Source: Octopus vulgaris (taxonomy: Eukaryota). Taken from it: 64,000 bases of DNA. The notes under the pieces were generated by a model. That model did no database searches, was not told the origin of the DNA, and worked only from the letters and a program-made list of their open reading frames with translations. The position numbers and the translations under genes were made by a program. The DNA is taken from NCBI GenBank assembly GCA_951406725.2, contig OX597821.1, forward strand, positions 29,946,001-30,010,000. Reading direction: 5' to 3'. This document shows, in pieces, positions 26,523-40,410 of the stretch. Position 1 is the first letter of the stretch. Each line of letters opens with the position of its first letter.

Positions 26523-27108
26523 TAATCAAAATAAAAACATGATGCCAAGGATTCAGCGGTACATATGTTTCGGGCCTTTGCTGGTTCAGAGTCATCCAGG
26601 TCATGTCCGAGAGAACGACAAAGAGTGCATGATATTAACAGTGAGTTCAAATCTTGGCAAAGTTTGCATTTGACTTTTATCACTCGCTAATGAGCTTTCT
26701 TCATTTTTCTCCTCCTCCTCCACCTCATCGTCCTCATATTCTCCCCCTCCTCCAATACATTTGTGATTGCAAAGGAACGAAGAAGACCTACGCAGTCGAT
26801 CTACTTTCCATAACAAGACAAATTCCAATATAATATGTACCGTTTCTAAAAGAATAAGGAAAAACACATCGGACACTATATTATCAGATATACACACATT
26901 CAGTTGGTGACGGTTGAGGAAACTTTCATAAGATGTTTACTCGATTCCCACTGACCTAGAGAGGAGCACAACACCAGTATTTTGGAATTTATTGCGGTTT
27001 TATATTTTGGAATCTATTTTTTTCAAGAATTCTATTTTAGAATCATTTTGGAATCTTTTTTTTTCTAGTTAATTTTAGTTATTTTTTTAAAATTTTCAGC
27101 TCATTAAA

Positions 27109-28219
27109 ATGGAATGTCGAGTTAAGGAAAACGAGCATTTTCAACACCTCCTTTCATTTGCTTTCCATCAAGGTTCTAAGGCCGCAAAAGCTGCTCGCGA
27201 CATTTGTGCTGTCTATGGAGAGGATGCCATAGCTGGAAGAACCGCTCGTGATCGGTATGCCAAGTTCAAAAATGGAAATTTTGACCTCAGAGATGCATCT
27301 CGTTCTGGCCGTCTAGTTGAGTTCGATGAAGACCGATTAAACCAACTTTTGCTCGAAAATTCTCGTCAAACCACAAGGGAATTGGTAGAGAAAATAGAAT
27401 GCTCCCACACTGCTATAAAGGAACATGTTCACTCGATGGGAAAGGTTCAGAAGTATAGAGCATGAGTTCCGCATGCTTTATGTGACAACTACAAAAATCA
27501 ACGACCCACAATCTCTGCTGGTTTGCTTTACTTGTCACTGCTCAGCTCATGGACTCAAGCAACGATTTCTTTCCCGAATCGTTACTGGCGACGAAAAAGG
27601 GTACCTGTACATCAATATGAAGCAGCGTAAGGAATGGCTTAGCCCCGGTAAACAAGCGACACAACGCATGAAACAAGATCTTTATCCGCGTAAGACGGTG
27701 TTGTGCGTATGGTGGGACTGGGAAGGGTTTATCCATTACGAATTACTTGAACGGAACCAAACGGTCAACGCAGAACTCTATGTTCCACAGATGGAACGAC
27801 TCAACACAGTTATTCAAGAGAAAAGACCTAATCGGCAGCATGGAGTTCTTCTGCTGCACGACAACGCCAATATGACCAAGGAAGCCATTGAAATGCATGG
27901 CTGGGAAGTGCTTCCACATCCGCCGTACTCTGCTGATTTGGCACCAACGGATTTCCACCTCTTTCGATCTCTTTCAAATGCTATGCGCGGGGTTTCGTTT
28001 AATACTGATTCAGAATTGAGAGCTTGGTTGGATTAATTTTCGGAGTCGAATTCGGGTGATTTCTACCAACGAGGTATTGAAAATGTTGTTGAACCTTGGG
28101 ATGAAGTTGTAAGCAACAAGGGTGAATACATTATTGATTAATTAATTGTTATTTTTTATTAAACCTTTTAAAAAACTCAATTTAATAAAACGGTGGGAAC
28201 TTAGTTGCCCACACAATGT
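27109..28219 (+). mobile_element. mariner transposase pseudogene with 3' TIR
   Basis: HTH N-terminus (AAKAARDICAVYGEDA..RSGR), RIVTGDEKG, VLCVWWDWEG, LLHDNA, HPPYSADLAPTDFHLFRSL; frameshift near 27460 and a premature stop; 5' TIR not found. Confidence 0.95.
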
Positions 28220-28342
28220 ATAAGTAGCTGTGGACTTGTGTCAATGACCAGGTCACAGATGTACCACAAAATGCTTTGCCATTTTACAATATACAATACT
28301 AAAACATGTAAAATAAAATGAATATGTCGGCACATATATGTA

Positions 28343-28403
<61 letters not shown>

Positions 28404-29289
28404 TTTAAATAGCTATCACTAGTCGTCAACGACGTAATTGTTTCGGTTTTAAACTCGATCTCAGAGCAAGTCAGTACAATTCCGAAAATAAATTGCATTA
28501 AAAAGAAACTTGAATATATTTATATATTAATTGATTAATTTATTTATCATATACTTCGTGTATTTATTTCACTTCAGTATGCTTTTCAGATAAGCCTCAA
28601 TGTAACACGTCACTATACTGTTTGCACTTAGATATGAGAGAATAAATTAAATTCCTGAATGCCTCAAATTTCCCAGAGAATTCAAAGAAAGCTATTTATA
28701 AACATGTTCTTGAACGTTAAGAAAATAAAATGAAATAAAAGAAAGATGGTTTTAAATATCGTGTAAGTTCGTTTTCTTAAAAAATATATACTGCGTGGTA
28801 AAGAGCATGTCTTCTACAAAGGCCCCGGGCCGTCTAATGTCTTGAGTGAAGATTTGGTAGACGGTGAAAGAAACCCTTTGTGCGCGCGCATGTGTGTGAT
28901 TGTGTTTGTGCTTATTCTCACCACCGCTTGACAACCATGTTGGTTTGTTTACGTCTCTGTAAGTTAGCAGGTCGGCAGGAAGTGACCGATAGAAAATTAT
29001 CCAAATTTGAAATAAATAATTTAAAATAAATAATAAGATAGAAGAATAACCAACTATAATATAATATAGTTTTAAATATCGCGTAAGTATTATATGTTTA
29101 GTGAAAATTATACGTATTCTATGTTTAATTTCAAATTACTCCACATGAAATTTGAATTTAATATTTAAATTTCATTTAATACACTTAGAAGTATGTTTTT
29201 CTCTGCTAATCACAATCTGCAATTGTTTAGGGTGGGTTAGAAAATATAGCGGTTCAAGGTCGTGTAGGAAGACATTGAGCTAGAATAAA

Positions 29290-31066
29290 TAATAATGGTT
29301 TCAAATTTTGGCACAGGCGCAGAAGACTTCGAGGGGAAGAAAAAGTCAGTCACACCGAACCCAAGTAGTTGACTGGTATAATTTTACCAATTGCGAAAGG
29401 ATTAAAGACAAAGTCAACCGCGATACAACTCGTGATGTGAACGTAAAATACGGACGAAATGTCGCTAAGCATTGTGTTCGGCGAGCTAACTGTTATGTCA
29501 GCTCAGTGACTGAATAAAAATGATCCTGGTGGAATTTGAACTAAGAATGCTAGAATAAAATAATATAGTATTTGATTTAGGCACAACGCCGGTAATTTTA
29601 CGAGTAGGGTCTGTCGATGGCATCAATCTCAGTACTTGAATGTTTTTCTTTTTCATTTTACCGATAATGAATGGATAAAAGTTAAAATTCTCCTCGGTGA
29701 AATTTGAGCTCAGAACTTAAAGAGTCGGAGCAAATACGACGTTCTGAAAATTCTTTCAGTATGCTGCTTATTTGAGCCATAATAAGGATTTCTGACTTAA
29801 GCACAAGTCTAGTAATATTGCAGGGAGGGTTCTAGACGATTATATCGACCCCGGTGTACGACTAGTATTTATTTTATCGACTCCGAAAAGCAAAGTCGAC
29901 TTCAGCGGAAGGATCTCTACCTTTTGACCTAAAGATTTAAAAAAATTATTTTTTGTAACTAAACACCTTCAAACTTCGGACACTGGAAGAATGTGTCATA
30001 TAAAACATCTTTTACTCTTAGCGTTTTTGAGAAAAAACTAATATTTAAGAAGTTATTTCACGTTCAAGTTGTCCTATTTCGGTAATTTCAACCAGTCAGT
30101 GACGTCTATTCAGCTGAATAAAATTACTGCCGTTGTTTGTCAGCAATAACTTCCGGCGGTGTATTTTTCGTTTGTCACCGTTATTTATGATATCCCTAAC
30201 CCTAACCCTAAAACCCCAAACCTAACCCTAAAACCAGTACAAATGCACGAAAGATGTCATAAATAACGGTGACAAACGAAAAATACTCCACCGATAGTTG
30301 TTGTTGACAAACAACGGCAGTAATTTTATTCAGCTGAATACACGTCATTGATTGGTTGAAATTACCAAAATAGGACTACTTTAATGTGAAATAACTTCGT
30401 AAATATAAGTTTTTCTCAAAAATGCTAAGAGTAAAAGATGTTTTATATGACACATTCTACCAATGTCCGAAGTTTGAAAGTGTTTAGTTACAAAAAATTA
30501 TTTTTTAAATCTGTAGGTCAAAAGGTAAAGATCCCAGCGGAATTTGAACTGGAAACACAGAGATGAATGAAATGCTGATTCTGCTAGTTTGTCGTCTTAT
30601 TTGAGCTACAATAACGACCTATGATTTAGGCGCAAGCCTAGTAATTATGAAGGAAGAATGTTAGTCGATACCATCGAGTCCCAGTACTTAGACTGGTATT
30701 TTATTTTATCGACCCCGGAGGAATGAAAGATGGAGTTGTTCTCGGCAAGATTTGAACTCAGAAGGAAAAGAACCAGAGCAACTATAACAAAATATTTTAC
30801 ACACACTCTAATGGTTTTACGAAATCAGAGGTTTTTAAATCTACAATAATTTTTCTCTGATTTTGTCACAAGGGCAGAAATTTTGAGCATGTGTATGTGT
30901 GGGGGTGCAATTCGATTGCATCGATGAGCCCGGGATTTTGCTATTATTTCAGTTAAACGACTGAAGCATGAAGGGTAAAATTGACATCGGCGGGATTTGA
31001 GCTCAAAACGTAAAGAGCGAGAATAACTACTAAATATTTTGGTAATATTTGGTTAGCTCACAGCCT
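29290..31066 (-). mobile_element. Head-to-tail array of five SINE family B copies (one interrupted by a MITE)
   Basis: Repeated TTTATCGAC/GAATTTGAACTC motifs at ~250-bp period, separated by a TTTGAGCTACAATAA-like spacer. Confidence 0.8.
29911..30534. mobile_element. Foldback GGATC-ended MITE (Merlin-like) with ~280-bp arms and a (CCCTAA)n centre
   Basis: 8-bp TSD CAGCGGAA at 29903-29910 and 30535-30542; arms 29911-30193 and 30253-30534. Confidence 0.95.
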
Positions 31067-31201
31067 ATTATTTGAACTACACTAATAGATATAATTGTGA
31101 GTAGATTACATAAGTTTTAAATATTTTATGGAATGGAGGATAAAGGAAAGGATTTAAATGTCAGTACTCCATAGGCTGGTATTTCATTTATTTCTAAAAA
31201 A

Positions 31202-31433
31202 GGGGTGAGCTGGTAGAAACGTTAGCACGCCGGGCGAAATGCGTAGCCTTATTTCGTCTGCCATTACGTTCTGGGTTCAAATTCCGCCGAGTCCGACTTT
31301 GCCTTTCATTCTTTCGGGGTCGATAAATTAAGTAACAGTTACGCACTAGGGGTCGATATAATCGACTTAATCCGTTTGTCTGTCCTTGTTTGTCCTCTCT
31401 GTGTTTAGCCACTTGTGGGTAGTAAAGAAATAT
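31202..31433 (+). mobile_element. SINE family B, subfamily with a Tx1-like tail
   Basis: GAGCTGGTAGAAACGTTAGCACG head, GGGTTCAAATTCC B-box, Meta-like core, tail TGTCCTCTCTGTGTTTAGCCACTTGTGGGTAGTAAAGAAAT. Confidence 0.9.
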
Positions 31434-31734
31434 GTATTTGACTTATTTCTAAAAGACGAGAGAAAACGTCAAGCATGGAAGATATTTGAACTAAAACTAG
31501 TGTGAAATGCAAGTAAGCCAGAGAGAGCGCTGTCATTTCGAACATTTTACTACTTTTGATAATAAGAATTTTAAACCTTGGTAGACCATAATATTAACAT
31601 TTTTTGAAGGAGTGGGACATCTGATCAAATAGAATCCAATGATTAGGTTTATTTTGTATTCAAATTAGTGACGTATACCATTGTCTCTTACACGTTTCCA
31701 ACAGACCAATCACTAGTTCACTTCACTTCTGAAG

Positions 31735-33095
31735 CTGAAAGTGACAGGCAGTAACTTGAGGGACTTAATTCGGAAAGACCCGTTTTGTTTCTTTTTTACT
31801 TTATCCGTTGATATTTATCAACAGAATAAGTGTGTATGTGTATGCCTGATCCCATACATGCATTCATGCACATACGCATACACTGGTAGTTGTGCCCCAA
31901 CATGGGCAAAACTCGTTTGCTACAAGTAGTAAAATCATATACAATCGGTTTCCTAACAGTTACTATCTATACAATTCTCCACACAAAATATTGATCAGTT
32001 CTAGGCTAATGCACAATGGAATTGAAACCGGAAATAACTGTTTGGGAAATGAAAATCTTAACCGTACTGCTATGTCTACACCAATGATACTTAAATAATC
32101 TATTCGGAAATGACGAATATCAAAGTATACCATAGCCGGATTAGAACTGAAATCATAGAACAACATAGCTATATGCTGAAAAACATTTAGGCGGTTCGTA
32201 AACCACTGCCCTACTGCTTTAGGAAATCATACATGAATAGTCTTGCCATTATTATTGCAGAACAAGGAGGTGGTAAATCTTTTGTGTATTTTTTCAGTTT
32301 TAAAGTATGTACAACCAAAGCTAATTATAACTTAACTTACATCGCCTCTAGGATGAATATTTGTATTGTTCGGCTTCATTTGATTTTGGAATCTCCAGGA
32401 ATTGTTGTGGGTATTTCAACATTTAGCGTAAACTACTTGGCAGAAAAAAAATACAGCCAGCTGGAGTTTATATAATCTGTGTTAAGACTGCATGAAATTT
32501 GCAAGCTACAGTGTTAGTGGTTAAGATAGAAAACTGGCCGGGGTGTTAAATTGTTCGTTATGTTACTTCGCTGTATTCATTCTGGCTCTCTTCGCACTGA
32601 TACTACTGCTGTCAGCTCTGCCTTTCATCAGTTCTAGGTAGGTAAATAAAATGCTTGTATTGTTGTCCATTCTTTTCTTTCTGTTTTTCTCTCTTTCTTG
32701 AAGAAGCAAACTGTTTTCAAACGTGATGACGGCTGTATTCACTAGGTCTAAAACAGCCATCAGGAGGTGAGGACACAGGGCAATGTAATGAAATTTTTGC
32801 CTATTTTTGTTTATTTCCAGGTCGTCACCGATTAATCAGACCTATGATGACACATTATTCAGTCCTTATCATCCGTTATATTTTTGTGTCCTGAAAGTGA
32901 CAAGCAATAACTTAAGGGACTCAATTCGGAAAGACCCGTTTTTTTAAAAAAATTCTATTCGTTGATATGTATCAGCAAAATGAGTGTGTATGTATGTGCC
33001 TGATCTATACATGCATCCATACACATACGCATACATTGGTAGTTGTGCCCCAACATGGGCAAAACTCGCTTGCTACAAGTAGTAAAATCATATAC
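31735..33095. repeat. Pair of ~205-bp direct repeats (31735-31942 and 32891-33095)
   Basis: Both run CTGAAAGTGACA...AATTCGGAAAGACCCGTT...GGTAGTTGTGCCCCAACATGGGCAAAACTCG...AAAATCATATAC. Confidence 0.92.
32528..32766 (+). CDS. Candidate two-exon fragment (32528-32637 and 32704-32766) with a hydrophobic segment
   Basis: Donor AG|GTAGGT at 32638, long polypyrimidine tract plus AAG acceptor, donor GAG|GTGAGG; phase-compatible RKLAGVLNCSLCYFAVFILALFALILLLSALPFISSRSKLFSNVMTAVFTRSKTAIR. In-frame stop upstream and no good 5' acceptor or ATG. Confidence 0.3.
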
Positions 33096-33218
33096 CATAG
33101 TTGTGATGGCTAAAACAGTCTAAAGAATATACAAGGAAAAAAAAACAAAATAAACGCCTTTCACACGCAAGCTGAAAGTATGGGTAACGATAATCGTCAC
33201 GATTAAAAGCCATCTGAA

Positions 33219-33897
33219 GGCAGCGAGCTGGCAAAATCGTTAGCGCGTCGGGCGAAATACGACGTGGTATTTCGCTCATCCATACGTCTGGAGTTCAAAT
33301 ACCGTCGAGGTCGACTTTGCCTTTCATCATTTCTAGGTTGATTAAATAAGTACCTGTTTCGCACTAGGGTCGATTTAATCGACTTCATCCCTTCCCCAAA
33401 GCTGCCCTTGTGGTAAAAAATTTAAATATTTATTAAACCACATCTGAAAGTGGTGAGCTGGAAGAATTGTTAGCACGTCGAGCAAAATGCTTCGCGGCAT
33501 TTTGTCCGTCTTCCCGTGCTGATTTCAAATTCAGCCCAGGTCGACTTTGCCTCTCATCCTTTCAAGGTGATAAATAAAGTATCAATGAAATTCTGGGGGT
33601 TAATGTAATCGACTAGCCCCCTCCCACAAAATTTCAGGCCTTGTGCCTTTTGTAGGAATGACCAGTAGACCACATCTGAAGGCAGCAAGCTGGCAGAATC
33701 CTTAGCCAGCCTGGCAAAATGCTTAATCGGTATAGCGTTCGTCTTCACGTTATGAGTCTAAATTTCGCCATGGAAAATTTTGCTTTTCATCCTTTCAGGG
33801 TCGTTAAAATAGGTACCAGTTGAGAAGTACGTTTGATGTAATCGTCCTGCCTCCCCCGCAAAATTTCTGGTCTTGTGTCAAAATTTGAAACCAGTTT
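33219..33897 (+). mobile_element. Head-to-tail array of three SINE family B copies
   Basis: Heads at ~33219, ~33449 and 33681, each preceded by a CATCTGAA-containing spacer. Confidence 0.9.
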
Positions 33898-34754
33898 TAA
33901 CCCACATATAACACTCCAGAAAAGCTCATCTTATGCGAATTGTATATTTATTAAATTTCTGTGTTATCAACGAAGACAGTAAAGAAAAACGGACGAGATG
34001 ATATAACTTCTATTGGAAATCGAACCTGACCCTTGAATGCTACTTACGAAATGACGCATGAAAAGTAAGATTAGCTGCCATTCTTCGATGACTAGTCTTA
34101 ATTGTAATGAGCAATGTAATAATTATGTATGCAATTATCTCTTTATTACTATGAGCTGGTTGATGCATATATATATGCGATGCATGTTGTGAATGAAATA
34201 AATGAATAGCGTTTGTGATGCTTGTGTGTGTTTGTGGTAGTGCGTGTTAAGTGTACCTGCATATCTCTGTGATTATTATTGCGTGTCCATGTGTATGTGT
34301 AGTGTGCATCCATTTATGAATATTCAATAAAGATTATGCTCTAGATGTAGCTTGTTACGGAGCACGTATACGGGAAGTAATTTGATTAATATGAAAGGAA
34401 GACGTGTGCACAATGATTTTGATTGCATATCTATTGGCACATAGATCAGATATTAGTTGACAGGAAGGAAAAATGGTGTGGTGGGGGAGGTAACTGGTTT
34501 TCATTAAACCAATGAGAAAACAAGGGGCTAACGAGAAAGATCTTCGGCCTTTGTCTTTTAATACAATAAAAACAACAGCCAAATAATCCTCAAATCATTC
34601 CCTTATGTTTTAAAAAGAGGAGGGGCGCATTCGATAATATAGCAATAGATCCTCACCAAAATTGAAGATATTGAAAAGTAATACTGAATTTCCATTTGTT
34701 AAGTTGTGGGCGTTGTGGTAAAATAAAAATTAGATTGCACCAGATTTTAGAACT

Positions 34755-34806
<52 letters not shown>

Positions 34807-34846
34807 GCATATGTATATTTATATATGCATGCATGTGTATATATGC

Positions 34847-34894
<48 letters not shown>

Positions 34895-35217
34895 GAAAGA
34901 GAGAGAGAAGCATTTGTAAATTGTGAGACCCGAAGCAGAAGTCTGTTTAGATTTTTGACTAAGAACTGTACTGCTCACAACTGAGAAACTTCTGATTAAG
35001 GGCCTGTTGAGTAGGGTTCATTGGAGCTACAGCAACTTTTTTATGTAAACGAAAAGAAAACCTTCAGAAAGATTTTAAATCGGAAGGGAAATACAGGAAA
35101 TGAAATATTTTAAGGAATTCAGTCTGCCACGTACGACGCGATGTACAGCATATGGATTTCATGTATTGACAATAAGTAGAACACACACACACACACACAC
35201 ACTCACACACACACACA

Positions 35218-35295
<78 letters not shown>

Positions 35296-35949
35296 ATATT
35301 TATTGGCGTGTCCGTCAGACCAGCGTAATGGCATCATTCGAAAGCAAAAACGATGCGAGGAATTGCATTAAAACCAGCGGTGTATAATAACATCCGATAT
35401 AGCTTTATATATATATTTACACAATATATGCAAGATATGTGTAAATACATATATCCTTGCATTTGGATTCATTAAATCACATCTACTGATGTTAGTCAAT
35501 GAAAGGACTGCTACATCTCTCCTCGACCTGCTAGAAATATCAGCCAAGACTTCCTCAAGTCACACTGAATCATCTATAGAAAAGAAACATTGGCGTATAC
35601 ATACTGTGATGCAAACACCAAAGACTCGTATTTTCATGTGATTAAACCGCTTCTTATACGTCTATATCATTACTTCAGTTGCGAACCTTCAAACTCAGTA
35701 GGCAAGAATTTATACCGGCTTCCCTGATGTATAAGCGACCCAAAGTAGAAAGCGCCTTCTACAGCGTGAATCCAACACCATTGCATCGCAGGAGTGTTGG
35801 TGCTCATCTTCTCCAGAGTTAAGTGGAGTATTGTAAAATTAGGTATTTTGCTCAAGACTACAAGGGAAATTATTGTATGGAATCGAACTATAACCTTGCA
35901 ATCGTGAGTTCAACACCTTGGACGTCAGGACATTTGTCTTCTCAAATAT

Positions 35950-36150
35950 TGGTTTTAAATTTTGGCACAAGTTCAGAAATTTCGTAGTGTGGTTTAAGTC
36001 GATTATATCGTTCCCAGATAATTACTTTATCGATTCAGAAAAGATGAAAGGTAAAGTCGACCACAGCGAAATCTAAACTTTCAAACGTAAAAACGGATGA
36101 AATTCCGCTGAGCATTTTGCCCAGCATGCTAACGATCCTGCAAGCTCGCC
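35950..36150 (-). mobile_element. SINE family B
   Basis: AAATTTTGGCACAAG tail, GATGAAAGGTAAAGTCGAC core, GCTAACGATCCTGCAAGCTCGCC head. Confidence 0.82.
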
Positions 36151-36251
36151 ATTTCATGCCTTACCATCTATTAATTGTACTCAAGAGCGTAAGCGAGACT
36201 AACTTTTAGGTACTCACCCCTAATGACCACGCTGATCAAGGTAGTTTACTG

Positions 36252-36552
36252 TTGTTGTTTGTTCCTTCTCGAGCCATGCCTGGCTCATAAGGGCCGGTTT
36301 CCCGGTTTCCTTGGCGTATAGGTTTCCCACCTGGACGGGAAGCCGGTCCGTCGCAGGTGAGCTGCAAGATGCAGGAGGAAAGAGTGAAAGTTGTGGCGAA
36401 AGAGTCAGCAGAAGTTTCGCCATTACCTTCTGCAGGAGCTGCGTGGAGCTTAGGTCTTTCGCTCATAAACACACACATCTCCCGGTCTGAGATTCGAACC
36501 CGCGATCCCTCGACCGTGAGTCCGCTGCTCTAACCACTAGGCCATGTGCCTC
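36252..36552 (-). mobile_element. Young tRNA-derived SINE family C with a V-domain-like 3' part
   Basis: A-box TGGCCTAGTGG, B-box GGTTCGAATCT, (AAC)n tail, 15-bp TSD CAAGGTAGTTTACTG at 36237-36251 and 36553-36567. Confidence 0.95.
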
Positions 36553-37189
36553 CAAGGTAGTTTACTGCTGACCATAAACACATTTTCAATTTTACTATCC
36601 CTCTAAATGCTTTAAATTCTTCTCAACAGGTCTTTGAACTGTAAGTAAACTCCCGTTGAGGTTTGGATGATGGATTAGCAGAATCGTTAGAGCGTTGCGC
36701 AAAATATCTTACCGTATTTCTTTCGAAACGAATTTTATGATACACGTGACTCAACTTTTAGTATTAAGACTTCTACCGTCAAATGTTTTATTTTTTTTCT
36801 TAACTTGCTAAGTTGTAAGGCATGCACACACACACATACACACACACACACACACATACACACACACACACACACACACAAACACACAACGCACGCATAC
36901 GTACACACACACACACACAAACAAGCACATGCCGACGAACACACATATTTATGCGCACATGTACACAGAAAAACACAGAGAGGGGAAGAAGGAGAGTGGG
37001 AAAGTAAGAAAGAGGGAGAGAAAGAGAAGGAGAGCGTGTGAATGAAAAAGAACAACACATTAATCATTGCTTCGGGACGTGATAAAACTAGATGTCTCTC
37101 CTCAGGCCTGGACTCAGATCGGTCAAGCTGACCCTTGAAAATACGGTTGATATCATGAAAAACAAGACCGCAATATTACAGCTCAATAA

Positions 37190-37600
37190 GGCGGCGAACC
37201 GGCAGAATCGTAAGCATGCTGAAGAAAATGCTTATCGGCATTTCGCCCGTCTTTACGTTCTGAGTTCAAATTCCACCGAGGTCCGCATTGCCTTTCATCC
37301 TTTCGGGGTCAATAAGATAAATACCAGTTGAGCACAGTGATGTTGATGTAAGCGGCTTCATCGCGCCTCCGAAATTCCTGATCTTGTGCTCAAATTTGAA
37401 ACCAATATTATGGCTTAAAATGGCAGCGAGCTGGTAGAAACGTTAGCGCGCCGGGCGAAATGCTTAGCAGTATTTCGTCTGCCGTTACGTCATGAGTTCA
37501 AATTTCGCCGAAGTCGACTTTGCCTTTCGGGGTCGATTAAATAAGTACCAGTTACACACTGGGTTCGATATAATCGACTTAATATGTTTGTCTCTCCTTG
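37190..37600 (+). mobile_element. Two tandem SINE family B copies
   Basis: Heads at 37190 and 37422; spacers CAATATTACAGCTCAATAA and CAATATTATGGCTTAAAAT. Confidence 0.88.
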
Positions 37601-37664
<64 letters not shown>

Positions 37665-37743
37665 AATCTATCCAGCCATCCGTTTGTCCGTCCGTTCGTC
37701 TACCTACCTACCTACCTACCTACCTACCTACCTCTCTACCTAC

Positions 37744-37781
<38 letters not shown>

Positions 37782-37835
37782 GCCCGCCTATCTATCTACC
37801 CTATCTACCTATCCATGCATCCATCCATCTATCTA
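37601..37835. repeat. (CTAT)n/(CTAC)n tetranucleotide repeat
   Basis: Direct reading. Confidence 0.96.
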
Positions 37836-38689
37836 CGTAAGTCTAAACAATTTCTCGTATTTATTTATGTTAGTTTACATTGAACTTTTGTCAACAGCTG
37901 GTTAATAACATCAGCTTTCGCGTGATTGAATCGGTCTTCTGAAAATCCACCCTCTGTGGGTGTATTTTCGCTTTACAAAATTCCTTAAAAAATTTTTTTT
38001 TTTTCAATCTGTCCTGGAAAATGGATAACTTGGCTGAAGCGGCCATCGTTCCATTGTCTTTCATGGACATTAATTTCCTTGCATTGCCGAATGCTGCAGG
38101 GAAAAGAGAAAGCATTGAATCACATTCACACGCAGCCGAACAACGTCAACACACATACTGACAAGAGCATTCCAAACAAGAAAGTGGGAAAGGGAAGCAA
38201 GAAGAATGAACAAATGTCTACAGCCACCACCACCACCATTACCACCAACGCGAACAGACAAAGTAACTTTGCTTCAGCTTTGAAGCAAAGAAAACGAGCG
38301 GTTTCATTTACGCCACAACAGCTAAAGGAAACACGACACCTTTAATCTAAGGAGGGTAATACAATGAAACTAAACACATTTTAGAAAATACTAACAAAAA
38401 AAAATCATATACAAGGCAACGAATTTAAAACGAGAAAACCCGTAAACATAAATCAACAAATAATTCAAAAATTGGGAGTTCCTTTATAAACGCTCCTCTC
38501 CAAGAAAATGAAATACAGTTAAAAAAAAGTTACGAAAATGAAAAAATATATACAAAATGAATGATGTATGCAAAAAATTAGAAAGATTCAACCATTTTTA
38601 AAGATTTTATACTAAAAAATAAAACAAACGGAAAACGGGTACTCGCGAATATAAACAAACATTTTGGATGGTATAAATGAAATCAGCGG

Positions 38690-40410
38690 GAGTATCCCCA
38701 GTTTTGTGACTGCTAAAGAAAGATCTAAACAAGGGGAACGTCATAGATAACTTCAAGCCCATCACTCTGCTCAACGCAGATTTGAAGATTTTGGCTAAGG
38801 TGTAAGCTGAGAGATTGGCGCTTGTCATCGAGAAACTGGTCGACAAAGCGCAAGTATCCATGGTAACCTCCACCTCATGCGCTACATCATAGACAGAGTA
38901 GTTAAGGAACCTGGCATGCGTGGGGCGCTGATCAATTTTGATCAATCGAAACCTTTCGATAGGGTAGACCATCGATATTTGTAATCTGTTCTTTCACGTT
39001 TGGATTGCTGCTTTATACAGCGACATCCTTTCAGCAGTTCACGAGAATGGTCATCTGTCCAAACCATTTGACATTACGCGTTTGGTTCGTCAGGAATGCC
39101 TCCTCTCGTCACTTCTGTAGGTATTGACTCTTGAGCAACTACTACGGAAGCTGGAGACGCTGAGGGTCATCCTGCGAGAAATGAGATGGAGGCGGAGCGT
39201 GTCTGCATACGCGGATGACGTATGTGTCATAGTGTCAAGACACAGGCATACTGATGTAGTCGGCGCGACCCTAAAACAATACGAAGCGGTAAAGTCAGTG
39301 TGTTTGAGGCTCGGCGCCTGGAGAAACAAGCCCATGCCGTCCAACAGCGTCTCCATCGCGGGACACTGGACCGACGTACCGGTTAAATTGCTCGAGATCT
39401 GGTTCAGACCAGACCTTCAAATGGAGAAGAACTGAGACGAAATGACGAGTAGGGTGGCCGCTCTTACCCAGCAATGGGCCGAGAGGAAGCTATCCCTAAA
39501 ACGTCGGGCGGAGCGGCGTACGCGCACATCGCATCCGTCAACTGTTACCGTCTGACCGTCGTACCTTGTCCCGACTCTACCATCACCAAACTGGAACGCA
39601 TACTCTTCCGCTTTTTGTAGTAAGGAATCGTTCCGATGGTTAGGCGATCCATTTGCTGTGAACGTCTGCTAAATGGAGGGCTGGGCATGCCATGGTCGAT
39701 GATGCGCAGACATTCGCTGAAACTGCGACATCTTCAGGGTTTCATTGACAACGTTTATGAGACGCGCTTTTCTGCAACTGGCCTCTTTAGCCGAACAGCA
39801 GTCATGGATCAAACAGAGACGGAGGCTAGGCGAATCCGCGAGTATCGCTATGCTCTCGAGGAACTCTGCCGTCCGGGATCAAATTTGTGTAACTCTAACT
39901 GCACAAAATCGTTCTATAGAAGATTAGTGGAGTGGAGGTTTGACTACGTTCTAGGGGTAAAATCTTGAGGAGAATCATCAACGTTTTCAAGTACCTCTTG
40001 AGAAGGAATGTGAGAATAGAGAGGAAGCCTTTCTCTCATGAAAATTTCAATAAAAGGTGAGCGAATGTAGCAAAGACGGTACGCGTGGATGACGAAATCA
40101 CTTTGAGCATGATCCTGAAAATCCAGAGAGAGAAAGAGAGGGGGAGATCGCTTTGCTCTCATGTGTTCTTTCCCTGCCTGATGTTACCTTGGCCTTTTTC
40201 GTAGGCTTTTCTTTCCACGTATAAACCTAATCTGTATTACATATTTTCTCCCCCTTTTGAGAACTCTTTTATAAATGGAACATTTTTATTCCGATGATTA
40301 CACGTCCCAAACTCTTTCAATCCCTTTTGATCGTATTTTGTTTCTTTTTTTTTCGAAAAAAAAAGTTCTACATTGTATTGTCCCCTCTGTGTTCGGCCCT
40401 GTGTGGCTAA
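38690..40410 (+). mobile_element. Decayed, internally deleted Tx1/L1-clade LINE (RT, ORF2 C-terminus, 3' UTR)
   Basis: DNFKPITLLNADLKILAKV, NLHLMRYII, LINFDQSKPFDRVDHRYL, VRQECLLSSLL, AYADDVCVIVS, NGGLGMP, FKYLLRRNVRIERK. A possible ORF1 remnant lies upstream (38020-38680). Confidence 0.92.

What the first reader, a model, noticed from the sequence alone, without database searches (positions are those of the whole stretch)
29275..31085. Five-unit SINE array with six copies of one spacer: repeated insertion at the same site
Seen: minus-strand family B units separated by TTGAGCTAGAATAA (29275), ATGCTAGAATAA (29547), TTATTTGAGCCATAATAA (29768), TTATTTGAGCTACAATAA (30597), TTTTTAAATCTACAATAA (30832) and TTATTTGAACTACACTAA (31068). 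The units are strongly diverged from each other. Inference: each new copy inserts directly upstream of an existing SINE head and re-duplicates the same target, producing a chronological insertion record. The spacer's reverse complement resembles the spacer at 37171, hinting at a target preference.
Basis: partly seen in the sequence, partly recalled or inferred. Interest (0 to 1): 0.75.

Follow-up and report, generated by a model that had tools for sequence, protein, structure and literature searches.

The report
SINE stack reusing one insertion site
Five to six old copies of a short mobile element sit head-to-tail, each separated by a copy of the same 14-base insertion scar, and were most likely stacked by repeated landings in one site, a known process that turns out to be very common in this genome.

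Summary
They bound minus-strand SINE copies (nhmmer E 1e-18 to 1e-51). I add a degenerate seventh spacer, a remnant sixth unit, and a 625-bp foldback transposon that splits unit 3.

The repeated block is 14 nt (TTATTNTAGCTCAA). Its first 5-6 nt match the SINE's own 3' end and general target motif (AWTATT). The other 9 nt are locus-specific and are not part of the family consensus.

Repeated insertion is the best reading:
- Units differ in subfamily state (u4 versus u1: 16 of 31 diagnostic sites discordant) and in their 5' ends.
- They share no excess derived mutations (p=0.10 and 0.50).
- They never group in 200 bootstrap trees (AU for one clade p=0.035; a quick tree gave 0.40).

Local duplication of u2, u4 and u5 is not excluded. 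No age gradient or insertion order is shown. No extended target motif exists.

In 800 kb of unbiased sample, 44 of 158 neighbour intervals are same-orientation within 60 bp, against 2.3 expected for both orientations.

The mechanism (multiple insertion at one target) and the TSD1-(SINE-TSD1)n layout are already published. This is a new member of a known kind, of moderate interest.

The parts
29275..29288 (-). Spacer S5, the 3'-most copy of the target-site duplication (SINE strand: TTATTCTAGCTCAA)
29289..29503 (-). Unit u1, a young-type (B1-like) SINE copy that lacks about the first 6-8 model positions
   Evidence: nhmmer B1 119 bits against B2 65, model 7-219; 21 B1 against 7 B2 diagnostic states
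29504..29516 (-). Spacer S4b, a degenerate seventh copy (TATTCAGTCACTG)
   Evidence: read by eye, weakest part
29517..29546 (-). Remnant unit u1b. It starts at the B-box-like motif (model about 70-92) directly after spacer S4. It is 5'-truncated and internally deleted.
   Evidence: BLAST of consensus positions 71-90 to 29547-29528, 90%
29547..29558 (-). Spacer S4 (TTATTCTAGCAT)
29559..29771 (-). Unit u2, old-type (B2-like) SINE copy
   Evidence: nhmmer B2 93 bits against B1 64
29772..29785 (-). Spacer S3 (TTATTATGGCTCAA)
29786..29909 (-). Unit u3, 3' part
   Evidence: nhmmer model 84-219
29910..30541 (.). Foldback transposon (29910-30534) inserted into u3, plus the second copy of its 7-bp duplication CAGCGGA (30535-30541; first copy 29903-29909). 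It is later than the array.
   Evidence: a contig of a related organism joins across it
30542..30600 (-). Unit u3, 5' part
   Evidence: nhmmer model 48-112 at 30517-30578; alignment
30601..30614 (-). Spacer S2 (TTATTGTAGCTCAA)
30615..30834 (-). Unit u4, clearest old-type (B2) copy
   Evidence: nhmmer B2 169 bits against B1 76 (this profile was built from hits to u4); non-circular states 0 B1 against 9 B2
30835..30849 (-). Spacer S1 (TTATTGTAGATTTAA), the most decayed full-length copy
30850..31071 (-). Unit u5, B2-leaning copy with mixed states
   Evidence: nhmmer B2 79 bits against B1 58; 11 B1 against 14 B2 states
31072..31085 (-). Spacer S0, the 5'-most copy (TTAGTGTAGTTCAA), followed by unrelated flank
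33209..33909 (+). Second array of the same type in the window. Three B1-type units (33217-33426, 33448-33647, 33679-33896) are bounded by four copies of another spacer (ACCACATCTG-like). The middle unit has a different tail type.
37172..37421 (+). Solitary B1 copy (37188-37409, nhmmer hit; its last 6 nt AATATT are also the start of the 3' direct repeat) used as comparator. It has its own direct repeats (37172-37187 and 37404-37421) and is followed at once by a family A head.

Best explanation
The array is a stack of SINE copies that most likely arose by at least three or four separate retrotransposition events into copies of one and the same target site.

Shown directly:
- Each solitary copy of this SINE family is flanked by a locus-specific direct repeat of about 15-18 nt. 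That repeat begins with AWTATT, the same letters that end the SINE.
- In the array, the same 14-nt repeat stands on both sides of every unit.

Inferred mechanism: target-primed reverse transcription by an unidentified partner LINE nicks at an AWTATT or (ATT)n-like site, where the SINE RNA 3' end can pair. A second nick about 14 nt downstream duplicates the target. Each insertion therefore leaves two intact copies of a site that had already proved usable. A later SINE RNA that lands in either copy in the same register re-duplicates the same 14 nt, and the stack grows by one unit and one spacer.

The units come from different subfamilies and have different 5' ends, so they are not copies of one another. 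Units u2, u4 and u5 cannot be told apart in this way, and one or two of them may have been added by unequal exchange.

The array predates the split from a relative that is about 9% diverged at this locus. It was later hit by a foldback transposon.
For: 1. Spacer is a target-site duplication, not consensus. In 30 dispersed copies the family alignment starts at (T)AAGG and ends at GAAACCAATATT, and the flanks carry different direct repeats. In the genome search with u4 plus its spacers, the 42 other matches span at most query 34-244 of 253, so none covers a whole spacer.

2. Different sources. Diagnostic states (B1:B2) are u1 21:7, u3 14:8, u5 11:14, u2 8:13 and u4 5:23. Discordant sites are u4-u1 16 of 31, u5-u3 13 of 23 and u4-u3 11 of 23. 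With subfamilies defined only from copies not selected through the array, u4 is 0:9 and u1 is 7:3, Fisher p=0.003.

3. Different ends. u2, u3 and u5 begin ATAAG/ATAAT. u1 lacks about 6-8 nt. u1b begins at about model position 70, right after a spacer. Tails differ in ATT-repeat length.

4. No shared history. The ratio of shared derived states is 0.79 for u2-u5 against a null of 0.66 (sd 0.10), p=0.10. For all five units it is 0.655 against 0.659, p=0.50.

5. Tree. The units fall in 5 separate places. They form one group in 0 of 200 bootstrap trees. The AU test of one clade gives p=0.035, delta lnL 47.

6. Spacer variants. The three 3'-most spacers share TTATTC while the others have G or A at that place. 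Some duplications therefore followed a mutation.

7. Generality:
- A second array in the window has 4 copies of another spacer, and locus L032 holds B2, B2 and B1 units with related spacers.
- Across 39 adjacent tail-to-head pairs, the mean excess identity over unlinked copies is 0.8%, and 2 of 39 pairs have rank at or below 0.05.
- 14 of 45 complete junctions join different families.
- In 800 kb of unbiased sample, 44 of 158 intervals are near and same-orientation, 7 are near and opposite, and 2.3 were expected in all.

8. Age. A contig of a related organism spans u1-u2-u3 with 44 other letters and 10 gaps over 511 nt. Another carries u3-u4-u5.
Against: - The quick-tree AU test did not reject one clade (p=0.40). 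The careful one is only borderline (0.035), and u4+u1 gives 0.062.
- u5-u4 (6 of 28), u4-u2 (5 of 26), u5-u2 (7 of 25) and u3-u2 (6 of 22) discordances are compatible with a common origin.
- The B2 profile and consensus were built from hits to u4, so they are partly circular. The non-circular test has only 10 sites.
- The 0.17 discordance rate used as a yardstick is my own assumption.
- Duplication right after the first insertion would leave no shared derived mutations, so points 4 and 7 cannot exclude it on their own.
- The partner LINE and its nicking preference were not found.
- The tRNA-like head was not confirmed by ARAGORN or Rfam.
- Why a used site should be hit again among millions of AWTATT sites is not explained.
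Confidence: 0.65

Rival explanations
1. Pure local amplification. One SINE inserted once, and unequal homologous exchange or slippage between its two flanking 14-nt direct repeats made SINE+spacer tandem copies. These copies then diverged in place. This is the explanation proposed for TSD1-(SINE-TSD1)n arrays in a clam.
For: It predicts the same layout. It is the published explanation for this layout in bivalves (PMC11481361, passages read). u2, u4 and u5 are not distinguishable by subfamily state. The quick AU test did not reject one clade.
Against: - u1, u3 and u4 differ at 11-16 of 23-31 diagnostic sites.
- The 5' ends differ, and one unit is truncated right at a spacer.
- The units never form one group in 200 bootstrap trees, and the AU test gives p=0.035.
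- Genome-wide, adjacent units are no more alike than unlinked ones, and 14 of 45 junctions join different families.
- The clam arrays are described as highly similar units truncated at the same position. That is not the case here.
Confidence: 0.12
2. Mixed origin with exchange dominant. Two or three insertions seeded the locus, and most of the unit number comes from later unequal exchange between the 230-bp repeats.
For: u2, u4 and u5 are compatible with one origin. The published R1 array is read as a double insertion followed by expansion through exchange (PMC5932611, passages).
Against: - There is no excess of shared derived mutations among u2-u5 (p=0.10).
- u3, which has discordant states, lies between u4 and u2.
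- Pairwise identities of u2, u4 and u5 (0.65-0.67) equal those to unlinked copies.
Confidence: 0.15
3. Single-event concatemer. The reverse transcriptase jumped from the 5' end of one SINE RNA to the 3' end of another during one integration, which gave a multi-unit insert.
For: Template-jump concatemers are made by LINE-1 ORF2p in vitro (PMC10830420, passages). Units from different RNAs could differ in subfamily. 18 of 45 complete junctions elsewhere in this genome have 2 nt or fewer between tail and head.
Against: A jump puts no copy of the genomic target between units. Here every junction holds the same 14 nt that also flank the whole array. Spacer variants imply that time passed between duplications.
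Confidence: 0.03
4. The spacer is part of the SINE itself (a terminal repeat of the element or a co-transcribed leader), so the array is only SINEs abutting each other.
For: The first 5-6 nt (TTATT) are identical with the SINE 3' end. The 4 nt after four spacers (ATAA) fit the SINE 5' end. A similar 14-mer flanks the copy at 37172-37421 and locus L029.
Against: In 30 of 30 aligned dispersed copies the flanks outside AWTATT differ from locus to locus. CTCAA occurs in 0 of 120 3' flanks, and AGCT in 7 of 120 against a 4.7% background. Matches to u4 stop short of its spacers.
Confidence: 0.02

Closest known systems
Tandem transposable elements formed by double or multiple insertion at one target site (McGurk and Barbash 2018, PMC5932611; R1 array with 33-nt rDNA duplications; P-element dimers with the 8-nt duplication in the junction). 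Passages read.
   Same: A copy of the target-site duplication sits in every junction. Units with distinct 5' truncations are taken as proof of separate events. The effect is favoured by elements with a target preference.
   Different: Here it is a non-autonomous SINE with only a weak 6-nt, microsatellite-like preference, not a strictly site-specific element. There are 5-6 units from several subfamilies. The units are old (22-30% diverged) and were not expanded into a homogeneous satellite.
TSD1-(SINE-TSD1)n and TSD1-(SINE)n-TSD1 arrays of tRNA-related SINEs in the blood clam Scapharca broughtonii (Mob DNA 2024, PMC11481361). Passages read.
   Same: Another mollusc, and the same two array layouts. 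The first matches this finding. The second matches the family A arrays noticed here. Arrays that mix families are also reported there.
   Different: The clam units are described as highly similar and truncated at the same tail position, and are attributed to unequal recombination between duplications. Here the units are as unlike as unlinked copies and differ in their ends. About 3% of clam SINEs are in such structures. Here 44 of 158 neighbour intervals are, though the criteria differ.
Insertion signature of RTE-clade LINEs and their SINEs with microsatellite-like 3' ends (Biology 2026, PMC13295347). Passages read.
   Same: The first letters of the duplication agree with the repeat at the element's 3' end. 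This suggests that pairing of the RNA tail with the nicked target guides the cleavage site or priming.
   Different: The partner LINE here is unknown, and the clade was not tested. That paper does not treat arrays in the passages I read.
Template-jump concatemers of non-LTR reverse transcriptases (LINE-1 ORF2p in vitro, PMC10830420). Passages read.
   Same: Head-to-tail copies of short templates.
   Different: Such concatemers have no target duplication between the units, so this mechanism does not fit the array. It may fit the zero-spacer junctions elsewhere in the genome.

Membership tests
SINE (non-autonomous non-LTR retrotransposon) | Short, non-coding, highly repeated and dispersed | tested here: met
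   About 220-234 bp profiles. 7310 first-look candidates in the genome. 196 hits in 800 kb of unbiased sample, 3.95% of bases.
SINE (non-autonomous non-LTR retrotransposon) | Flanked by variable, locus-specific target-site duplications; many 5'-truncated copies with intact 3' ends | tested here: met
   Direct repeats were read by eye in the alignment of 30 copies with flanks. Hits often start at internal model positions with complete tails.
SINE (non-autonomous non-LTR retrotransposon) | tRNA-, 5S- or 7SL-related head with internal pol III promoter boxes | tested here: inconclusive
   A B-box-like GTTCAAATYCC motif is seen by eye. ARAGORN found 0 tRNAs in 6 loci with young copies. Rfam found 0 matches at E up to 1 on a young copy. 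The tRNA origin of octopus SINEs is taken only from a citation listed in PMC4758252. That the window is cephalopod is my recollection and was not tested.
SINE (non-autonomous non-LTR retrotransposon) | 3' end shared with a partner LINE | tested here: inconclusive
   A scan for the tail motif outside annotated SINEs in about 1.05 Mb gave 1 unconvincing hit. No genome-wide search was made.
Multiple-insertion tandem (same target site reused) | Junctions contain the target-site duplication that also flanks the array | tested here: met
   There are seven spacer copies. The five full-length ones have a mean pairwise identity of 0.79.
Multiple-insertion tandem (same target site reused) | Spacer length and start agree with the family's usual duplication | tested here: met
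   Solitary copies have direct repeats of about 15-18 nt beginning AWTATT (tail profile). The array repeat is 14 nt beginning TTATT. Lengths of solitary duplications were read by eye, not measured systematically.
Multiple-insertion tandem (same target site reused) | Units are independent copies (different truncations or subfamilies, not each other's closest relatives) | tested here: met
   Met for u1, u1b, u3 and the group u2/u4/u5. Inconclusive within u2/u4/u5.
Array by unequal exchange between duplications (clam type) | Units highly similar, with the same truncation points | tested here: not met
   Pairwise identity is 0.56-0.67. It is not above that to unlinked copies: two adjacent pairs of this array (u5-u4, u2-u1) have ranks 0.35 and 0.48. 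The 5' ends and tail lengths differ.
Template-jump concatemer inside one duplication | No target sequence between the units; one duplication around the whole | tested here: not met
   Every junction holds the 12-15-nt spacer.

The most novel reading that the evidence does not exclude
In this genome SINE insertion is self-seeding. Every event recreates its AWTATT/(ATT)n-type target on both sides of the new copy, and existing SINE ends attract further same-orientation insertions so strongly that more than a quarter of all SINE neighbour intervals are head-to-tail stacks. The stacks are multi-subfamily insertion records that survive across species. They are a standing, retrotransposition-driven source of tandem DNA. 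This points to an unrecognised homing of the SINE/LINE particle to resident SINE termini, for example through pairing of the RNA tail with the resident tail.
Probability: 0.4. Interest if true: 0.55.

Novelty: new member of a known kind. Interest (0 to 1): 0.4.

Why it matters
The finding gives a clean, old, multi-subfamily example of target-site reuse by a SINE. It also shows that in this 2.8-Gb genome head-to-tail stacking is the rule rather than a curiosity: near same-orientation neighbours are about 38 times more frequent than random placement predicts (44 observed against about 1.15 expected for that orientation).

This matters in three ways:
- Repeat annotation. Merging tools may fuse such stacks, and age landscapes may mix subfamilies.
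- The birth of tandem repeats from mobile elements.
- The integration chemistry of LINE/SINE pairs with microsatellite-like tails.

It does not reveal a new kind of element or mechanism.

Tried and rejected
- Tandem Repeats Finder reported no array with the roughly 235-bp unit period over 27000-40000. The units are too diverged.
- The quick ML tree and its AU tests were unreliable. Constrained searches found better trees than the free search, so I repeated with a careful search.
- A strict non-circular definition of diagnostic sites left only 4-6 columns and no power (first part).
- The automated comparison of junction spacers with flanks (best 8-mer match) could not be told from its null, because old duplications are too decayed. 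Spacer reuse in other arrays was therefore judged by eye.
- I tested a segmental-duplication explanation for the likeness of the 37171 spacer. BLAST of the flanks gave only microsatellite hits.
- I tested for an extended target motif. There was no enrichment.
- The partner LINE was sought by its tail motif and not found.
- The tRNA nature of the head was not detected by ARAGORN or Rfam.
- A second read-laying job, meant to show the joint across the foldback in three runs of the related organism, did not complete. The absence of the foldback there rests on one contig.
- Earlier scan notes by place held nothing for this genome.
- Literature. I searched three times. In what I read I found no description of such arrays in cephalopods. 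The 2026 Octopus vulgaris repeat paper (PMC13282606, passages with SINE or tandem only) mentions tandem repeats only as TRF output. Supplements were not opened.
Full report
**What is there**

The window is G000:C8:29946001-30010000 of a 2.8-Gb genome. Between 29275 and 31085 the minus strand carries SINE copies head to tail.

- B1, a young type of 220 positions, from 30 loci found with the copy at 37165-37430.
- B2, an older type of 225 positions, from 29 loci found with unit 4.
- A, of 234 positions, from 13 copies.

nhmmer places five units at 29292-29506, 29565-29761, 29782-29910 plus 30517-30578, 30615-30825 and 30851-31034.

**The spacers**

The 14-nt core has 4 copies with at most 2 mismatches, against 1.2 expected, and 0 of 100 shuffles reached 4. 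At 3 mismatches the count is at chance level.

Read on the SINE strand, the spacers are as follows:

| Spacer | Coordinates | Sequence |
|---|---|---|
| S0 | 31072-31085 | TTAGTGTAGTTCAA |
| S1 | 30835-30849 | TTATTGTAGATTTAA |
| S2 | 30601-30614 | TTATTGTAGCTCAA |
| S3 | 29772-29785 | TTATTATGGCTCAA |
| S4 | 29547-29558 | TTATTCTAGCAT |
| S5 | 29275-29288 | TTATTCTAGCTCAA |

I add a degenerate S4b (29504-29516). Between S4 and S4b lies a 30-nt remnant of a sixth unit, which begins at the B-box-like motif.

Unit 3 is interrupted by a 625-bp foldback element with a 7-bp duplication.

**Is the spacer part of the SINE?**

Only its edge is.
- In the alignment of 30 dispersed copies with flanks, the family starts at (T)AAGG and ends at GAAACCAATATT.
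- Outside this, each locus has its own direct repeat of about 15-18 nt. That repeat begins with AATATT-like letters, the same as the SINE end (read by eye).
- Among 120 copies with complete tails, the last six profile positions are A 90%, A/T 39/55%, T 92%, A 85%, T 77% and T 77%. The flank beyond shows no specific motif. The 5' flanks show a three-base A-T-T periodicity.
- Matches to unit 4 in the genome stop short of its two spacers: query range at most 34-244 of 253 for the 42 other matches.

So 9 of the 14 nt are specific to this locus. The array has the layout duplication-(SINE-duplication)n.

**Local duplication or repeated insertion?**

Five lines of evidence bear on this.

1. Subfamily states. 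At 33 columns where the B1 and B2 consensus differ, the units read as follows:

| Unit | B1 states | B2 states |
|---|---|---|
| u1 | 21 | 7 |
| u3 | 14 | 8 |
| u5 | 11 | 14 |
| u2 | 8 | 13 |
| u4 | 5 | 23 |

Discordant sites:

| Pair | Discordant sites | Reading |
|---|---|---|
| u4-u1 | 16 of 31 | different sources |
| u5-u3 | 13 of 23 | different sources |
| u4-u3 | 11 of 23 | different sources |
| u5-u4 | 6 of 28 | compatible with one origin |
| u4-u2 | 5 of 26 | compatible with one origin |
| u5-u2 | 7 of 25 | compatible with one origin |
| u3-u2 | 6 of 22 | compatible with one origin |

The yardstick of 0.17 discordance expected for true duplicates is my assumption. B2 was defined from hits to u4, so I repeated the test with subfamilies defined only from copies not chosen through the array (84 B1, 23 B2). 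With 10 columns, u4 is 0:9 and u1 is 7:3, Fisher p=0.003, and u4 against u3 gives p=0.044. With stricter columns there is no power.

2. Ends. u2, u3 and u5 start ATAAG/ATAAT. u1 lacks about 6-8 nt. The remnant unit starts at about position 70, directly behind a spacer. u1 and u2 have longer ATT tails.

3. Shared derived mutations relative to the subfamily consensus.
- Ratio for u2-u5: 0.79, against 0.66 (sd 0.10) for random sets of four old dispersed copies (p=0.10).
- Ratio for all five units: 0.655 against 0.659 (p=0.50).

4. Trees.
- In a careful ML tree of the 5 units with 25 B1 and 25 B2 copies drawn at random, the units sit in five places. They form one group in 0 of 200 bootstrap trees. 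Forcing one clade costs 47 lnL (AU p=0.035). Forcing u4+u1 costs 34 lnL (p=0.062).
- An earlier quick tree with 70 dispersed copies also scattered them, but its AU test gave p=0.40. Constrained searches beat the free one there, so I do not rely on it.

5. Spacer variants. S4, S4b and S5 share TTATTC. S0-S2 have G and S3 has A at that place. At least some duplications therefore happened after a spacer had mutated.

Together these show at least three or four separate sources: u1, the remnant unit, u3, and the group u2/u4/u5. Within that group, exchange cannot be excluded.

**Order and age**

Divergence from the B2 consensus, each with about 3% sampling error:

| Unit (5' to 3') | Differences | Percent |
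|---|---|---|
| u5 | 45 of 175 | 25.7 |
| u4 | 45 of 204 | 22.1 |
| u3 | 40 of 158 | 25.3 |
| u2 | 53 of 193 | 27.5 |
| u1 | 64 of 211 | 30.3 |

u1 is 73.5% identical to the B1 consensus by BLAST. There is no significant gradient, so the 'chronological record' is not shown.

Contigs of a run of a related organism (coded C) give the age:
- One contig covers 29290-29808 with 44 other letters and 10 gaps in 511 nt.
- A 2675-nt contig carries 29780-29889, 30578-30784 and 30899-31058 in order. It has 96 nt where the window has 688 nt between 29889 and 30578.

All five units were therefore present before that split, and the foldback is likely absent there. This rests on one contig, because the confirming job did not complete.

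**The genome-wide picture**

I took 40 regions of 20 kb at round coordinates on 26 contigs, 800 kb in all. The sample holds 196 SINE hits and 158 neighbour intervals:

| Class | Count |
|---|---|
| At most 60 bp, same orientation | 44 |
| - tail to head | 14 |
| - tail to internal | 23 |
| - internal to head | 6 |
| - other | 1 |
| At most 60 bp, opposite orientation | 7 |
| Expected for near pairs of both orientations together | 2.3 |
| Far pairs, same against opposite orientation | 61 against 46 |

Over all material:
- 39 adjacent tail-to-head pairs are on average 0.8% more alike than copies of the same families at other loci. 2 of 39 have rank at or below 0.05.
- 14 of 45 complete junctions join different families.
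- Junction lengths beyond the profile end fall into classes: 18 of 45 at 2 nt or fewer, 5 at 3-7 nt, 15 at 8-20 nt, and 7 longer.

The finding belongs to the 8-20-nt class.

Other examples with a repeated complex spacer are a three-unit array at 33209-33909 in this window, with four ACCACATCTG-like copies and a middle unit of another tail type, and locus L032, with B2, B2 and B1 units.

**The spacer at 37171**

That solitary B1 copy has direct repeats at 37172-37187 and 37404-37421. They match the array spacer at 11-12 of 14 places.

The flanks of the two loci share only microsatellites. AGCT (7 of 120 against 4.7% background), GTAG (8 of 120 against 4.0%) and CTCAA (0 of 120) are not enriched in other duplications. 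One further locus (L029) has a similar duplication. I treat this as the shared AWTATT motif plus an unexplained coincidence.

**Mechanism**

Shown:
- Duplications begin with the letters that end the SINE.
- Every junction of the array repeats the duplication.
- The units come from different sources.

Inferred: target-primed reverse transcription at AWTATT/(ATT)n-like sites, with a second nick about 14 nt away. Each insertion leaves two usable copies of the site, and a later hit in the same register adds one unit and one spacer.

Not explained:
- Why used sites are hit again so often.
- Why orientation is so biased.
- Which LINE is responsible.

**Comparison with what is known**

- Multiple insertion at one target as the origin of tandem elements, with the duplication in the junction and distinct 5' truncations as the criterion, is established (PMC5932611, passages).
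- Both array layouts seen here were described for SINEs of a clam and attributed to unequal recombination between duplications (PMC11481361, passages).
- Agreement between the start of the duplication and a microsatellite-like 3' end is described for RTE-clade LINEs and their SINEs (PMC13295347, passages).
- Template-jump concatemers (PMC10830420, passages) do not fit this array but may fit the zero-spacer junctions.
- Two earlier scan notes on other genomes named the same two concepts.
- In three literature searches and the passages read from a 2026 Octopus vulgaris repeat annotation (PMC13282606), I saw no account of such arrays in cephalopods. That the window is cephalopod is my recollection and was not tested.

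**Verdict**

The repeated-insertion reading is the best supported (about 0.65), with local exchange possible for part of the units. The claimed order, age gradient and extended target motif are not supported. This is a new member of a known kind, made more interesting by how common such stacks are in this genome.

Noticed in passing
window 29910-30534 (duplication copies at 29903-29909 and 30535-30541); loci L142-L146: A foldback, MITE-like element of 625 bp. Its two roughly 280-bp arms are 91% complementary. Its centre is telomere-like (CCCTAA)n, and this is kept in 5 of 5 other copies examined. The duplication is about 7 bp. There are at least 3476 first-look candidates in the genome, and all 40 scored places are full-length or nearly so (38 of 40 cover about 600 or more of the 625 query positions) at 88-91% identity on the better strand. 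It is likely absent from the orthologous site of a related organism (one contig).
   Followed up: partly
loci L032 (248-1380), L037, L024, L006, L047, L033, L034; random regions R069, R071, R081, R083, R093: Family A SINEs form regular tandem arrays of profile positions 50-234, with one fixed junction (tail ...AAAGAAATAG joined to GTATTTCG... of the head). There are up to six units. Arrays often start with a full unit and often end with a B1-type unit that begins at about position 50. In the unbiased sample, 23 of 158 intervals are of the tail-to-internal type. This matches the TSD1-(SINE)n-TSD1 layout reported in a clam and calls for a different mechanism than the finding.
   Followed up: partly
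window 33209-33909 (+): A second array of the same type. Three B1-type units are bounded by four copies of another locus-specific spacer (ACCACATCTG-like). The middle unit carries a different tail variant (…TTTTGTAGGAATGACC…).
   Followed up: partly
loci L022, L035, L038, L040, L043, L044, L060, R081, R083 and others: 18 of 45 complete tail-to-head junctions have 2 nt or fewer between the SINE tail and the next head. Either the reverse transcriptase jumped between templates, or the insertion went into the resident tail with a duplication of only the ATTATT.
   Followed up: partly
window 37172-37421 and locus L029 (about 1470-1730): Two unrelated loci carry target-site duplications very like the array's spacer (11-12 of 14 at 37172; ATTATTGTAGCT... 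at L029). Yet the flanks are unrelated and no general extended target motif exists. This is unexplained.
   Followed up: partly
window 37422-37603 and 37601-37835: A family A copy follows the B1 copy's 3' duplication at once. It loses its tail in a (TATC)58 microsatellite.
   Followed up: no
window 31200-31432 (+): A well-preserved family A copy lies 115 bp from the array's 5' end in the opposite orientation. It has its own direct repeat (TTATTTCTAAAA).
   Followed up: no
locus L012 (1503-1968); random regions R111, R061: Head-to-head SINE pairs with gaps of about 30-34 bp. This is what opposite-orientation hits on a palindromic AATATT target would give. Only 7 near-opposite pairs occur in 800 kb.
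   Followed up: no
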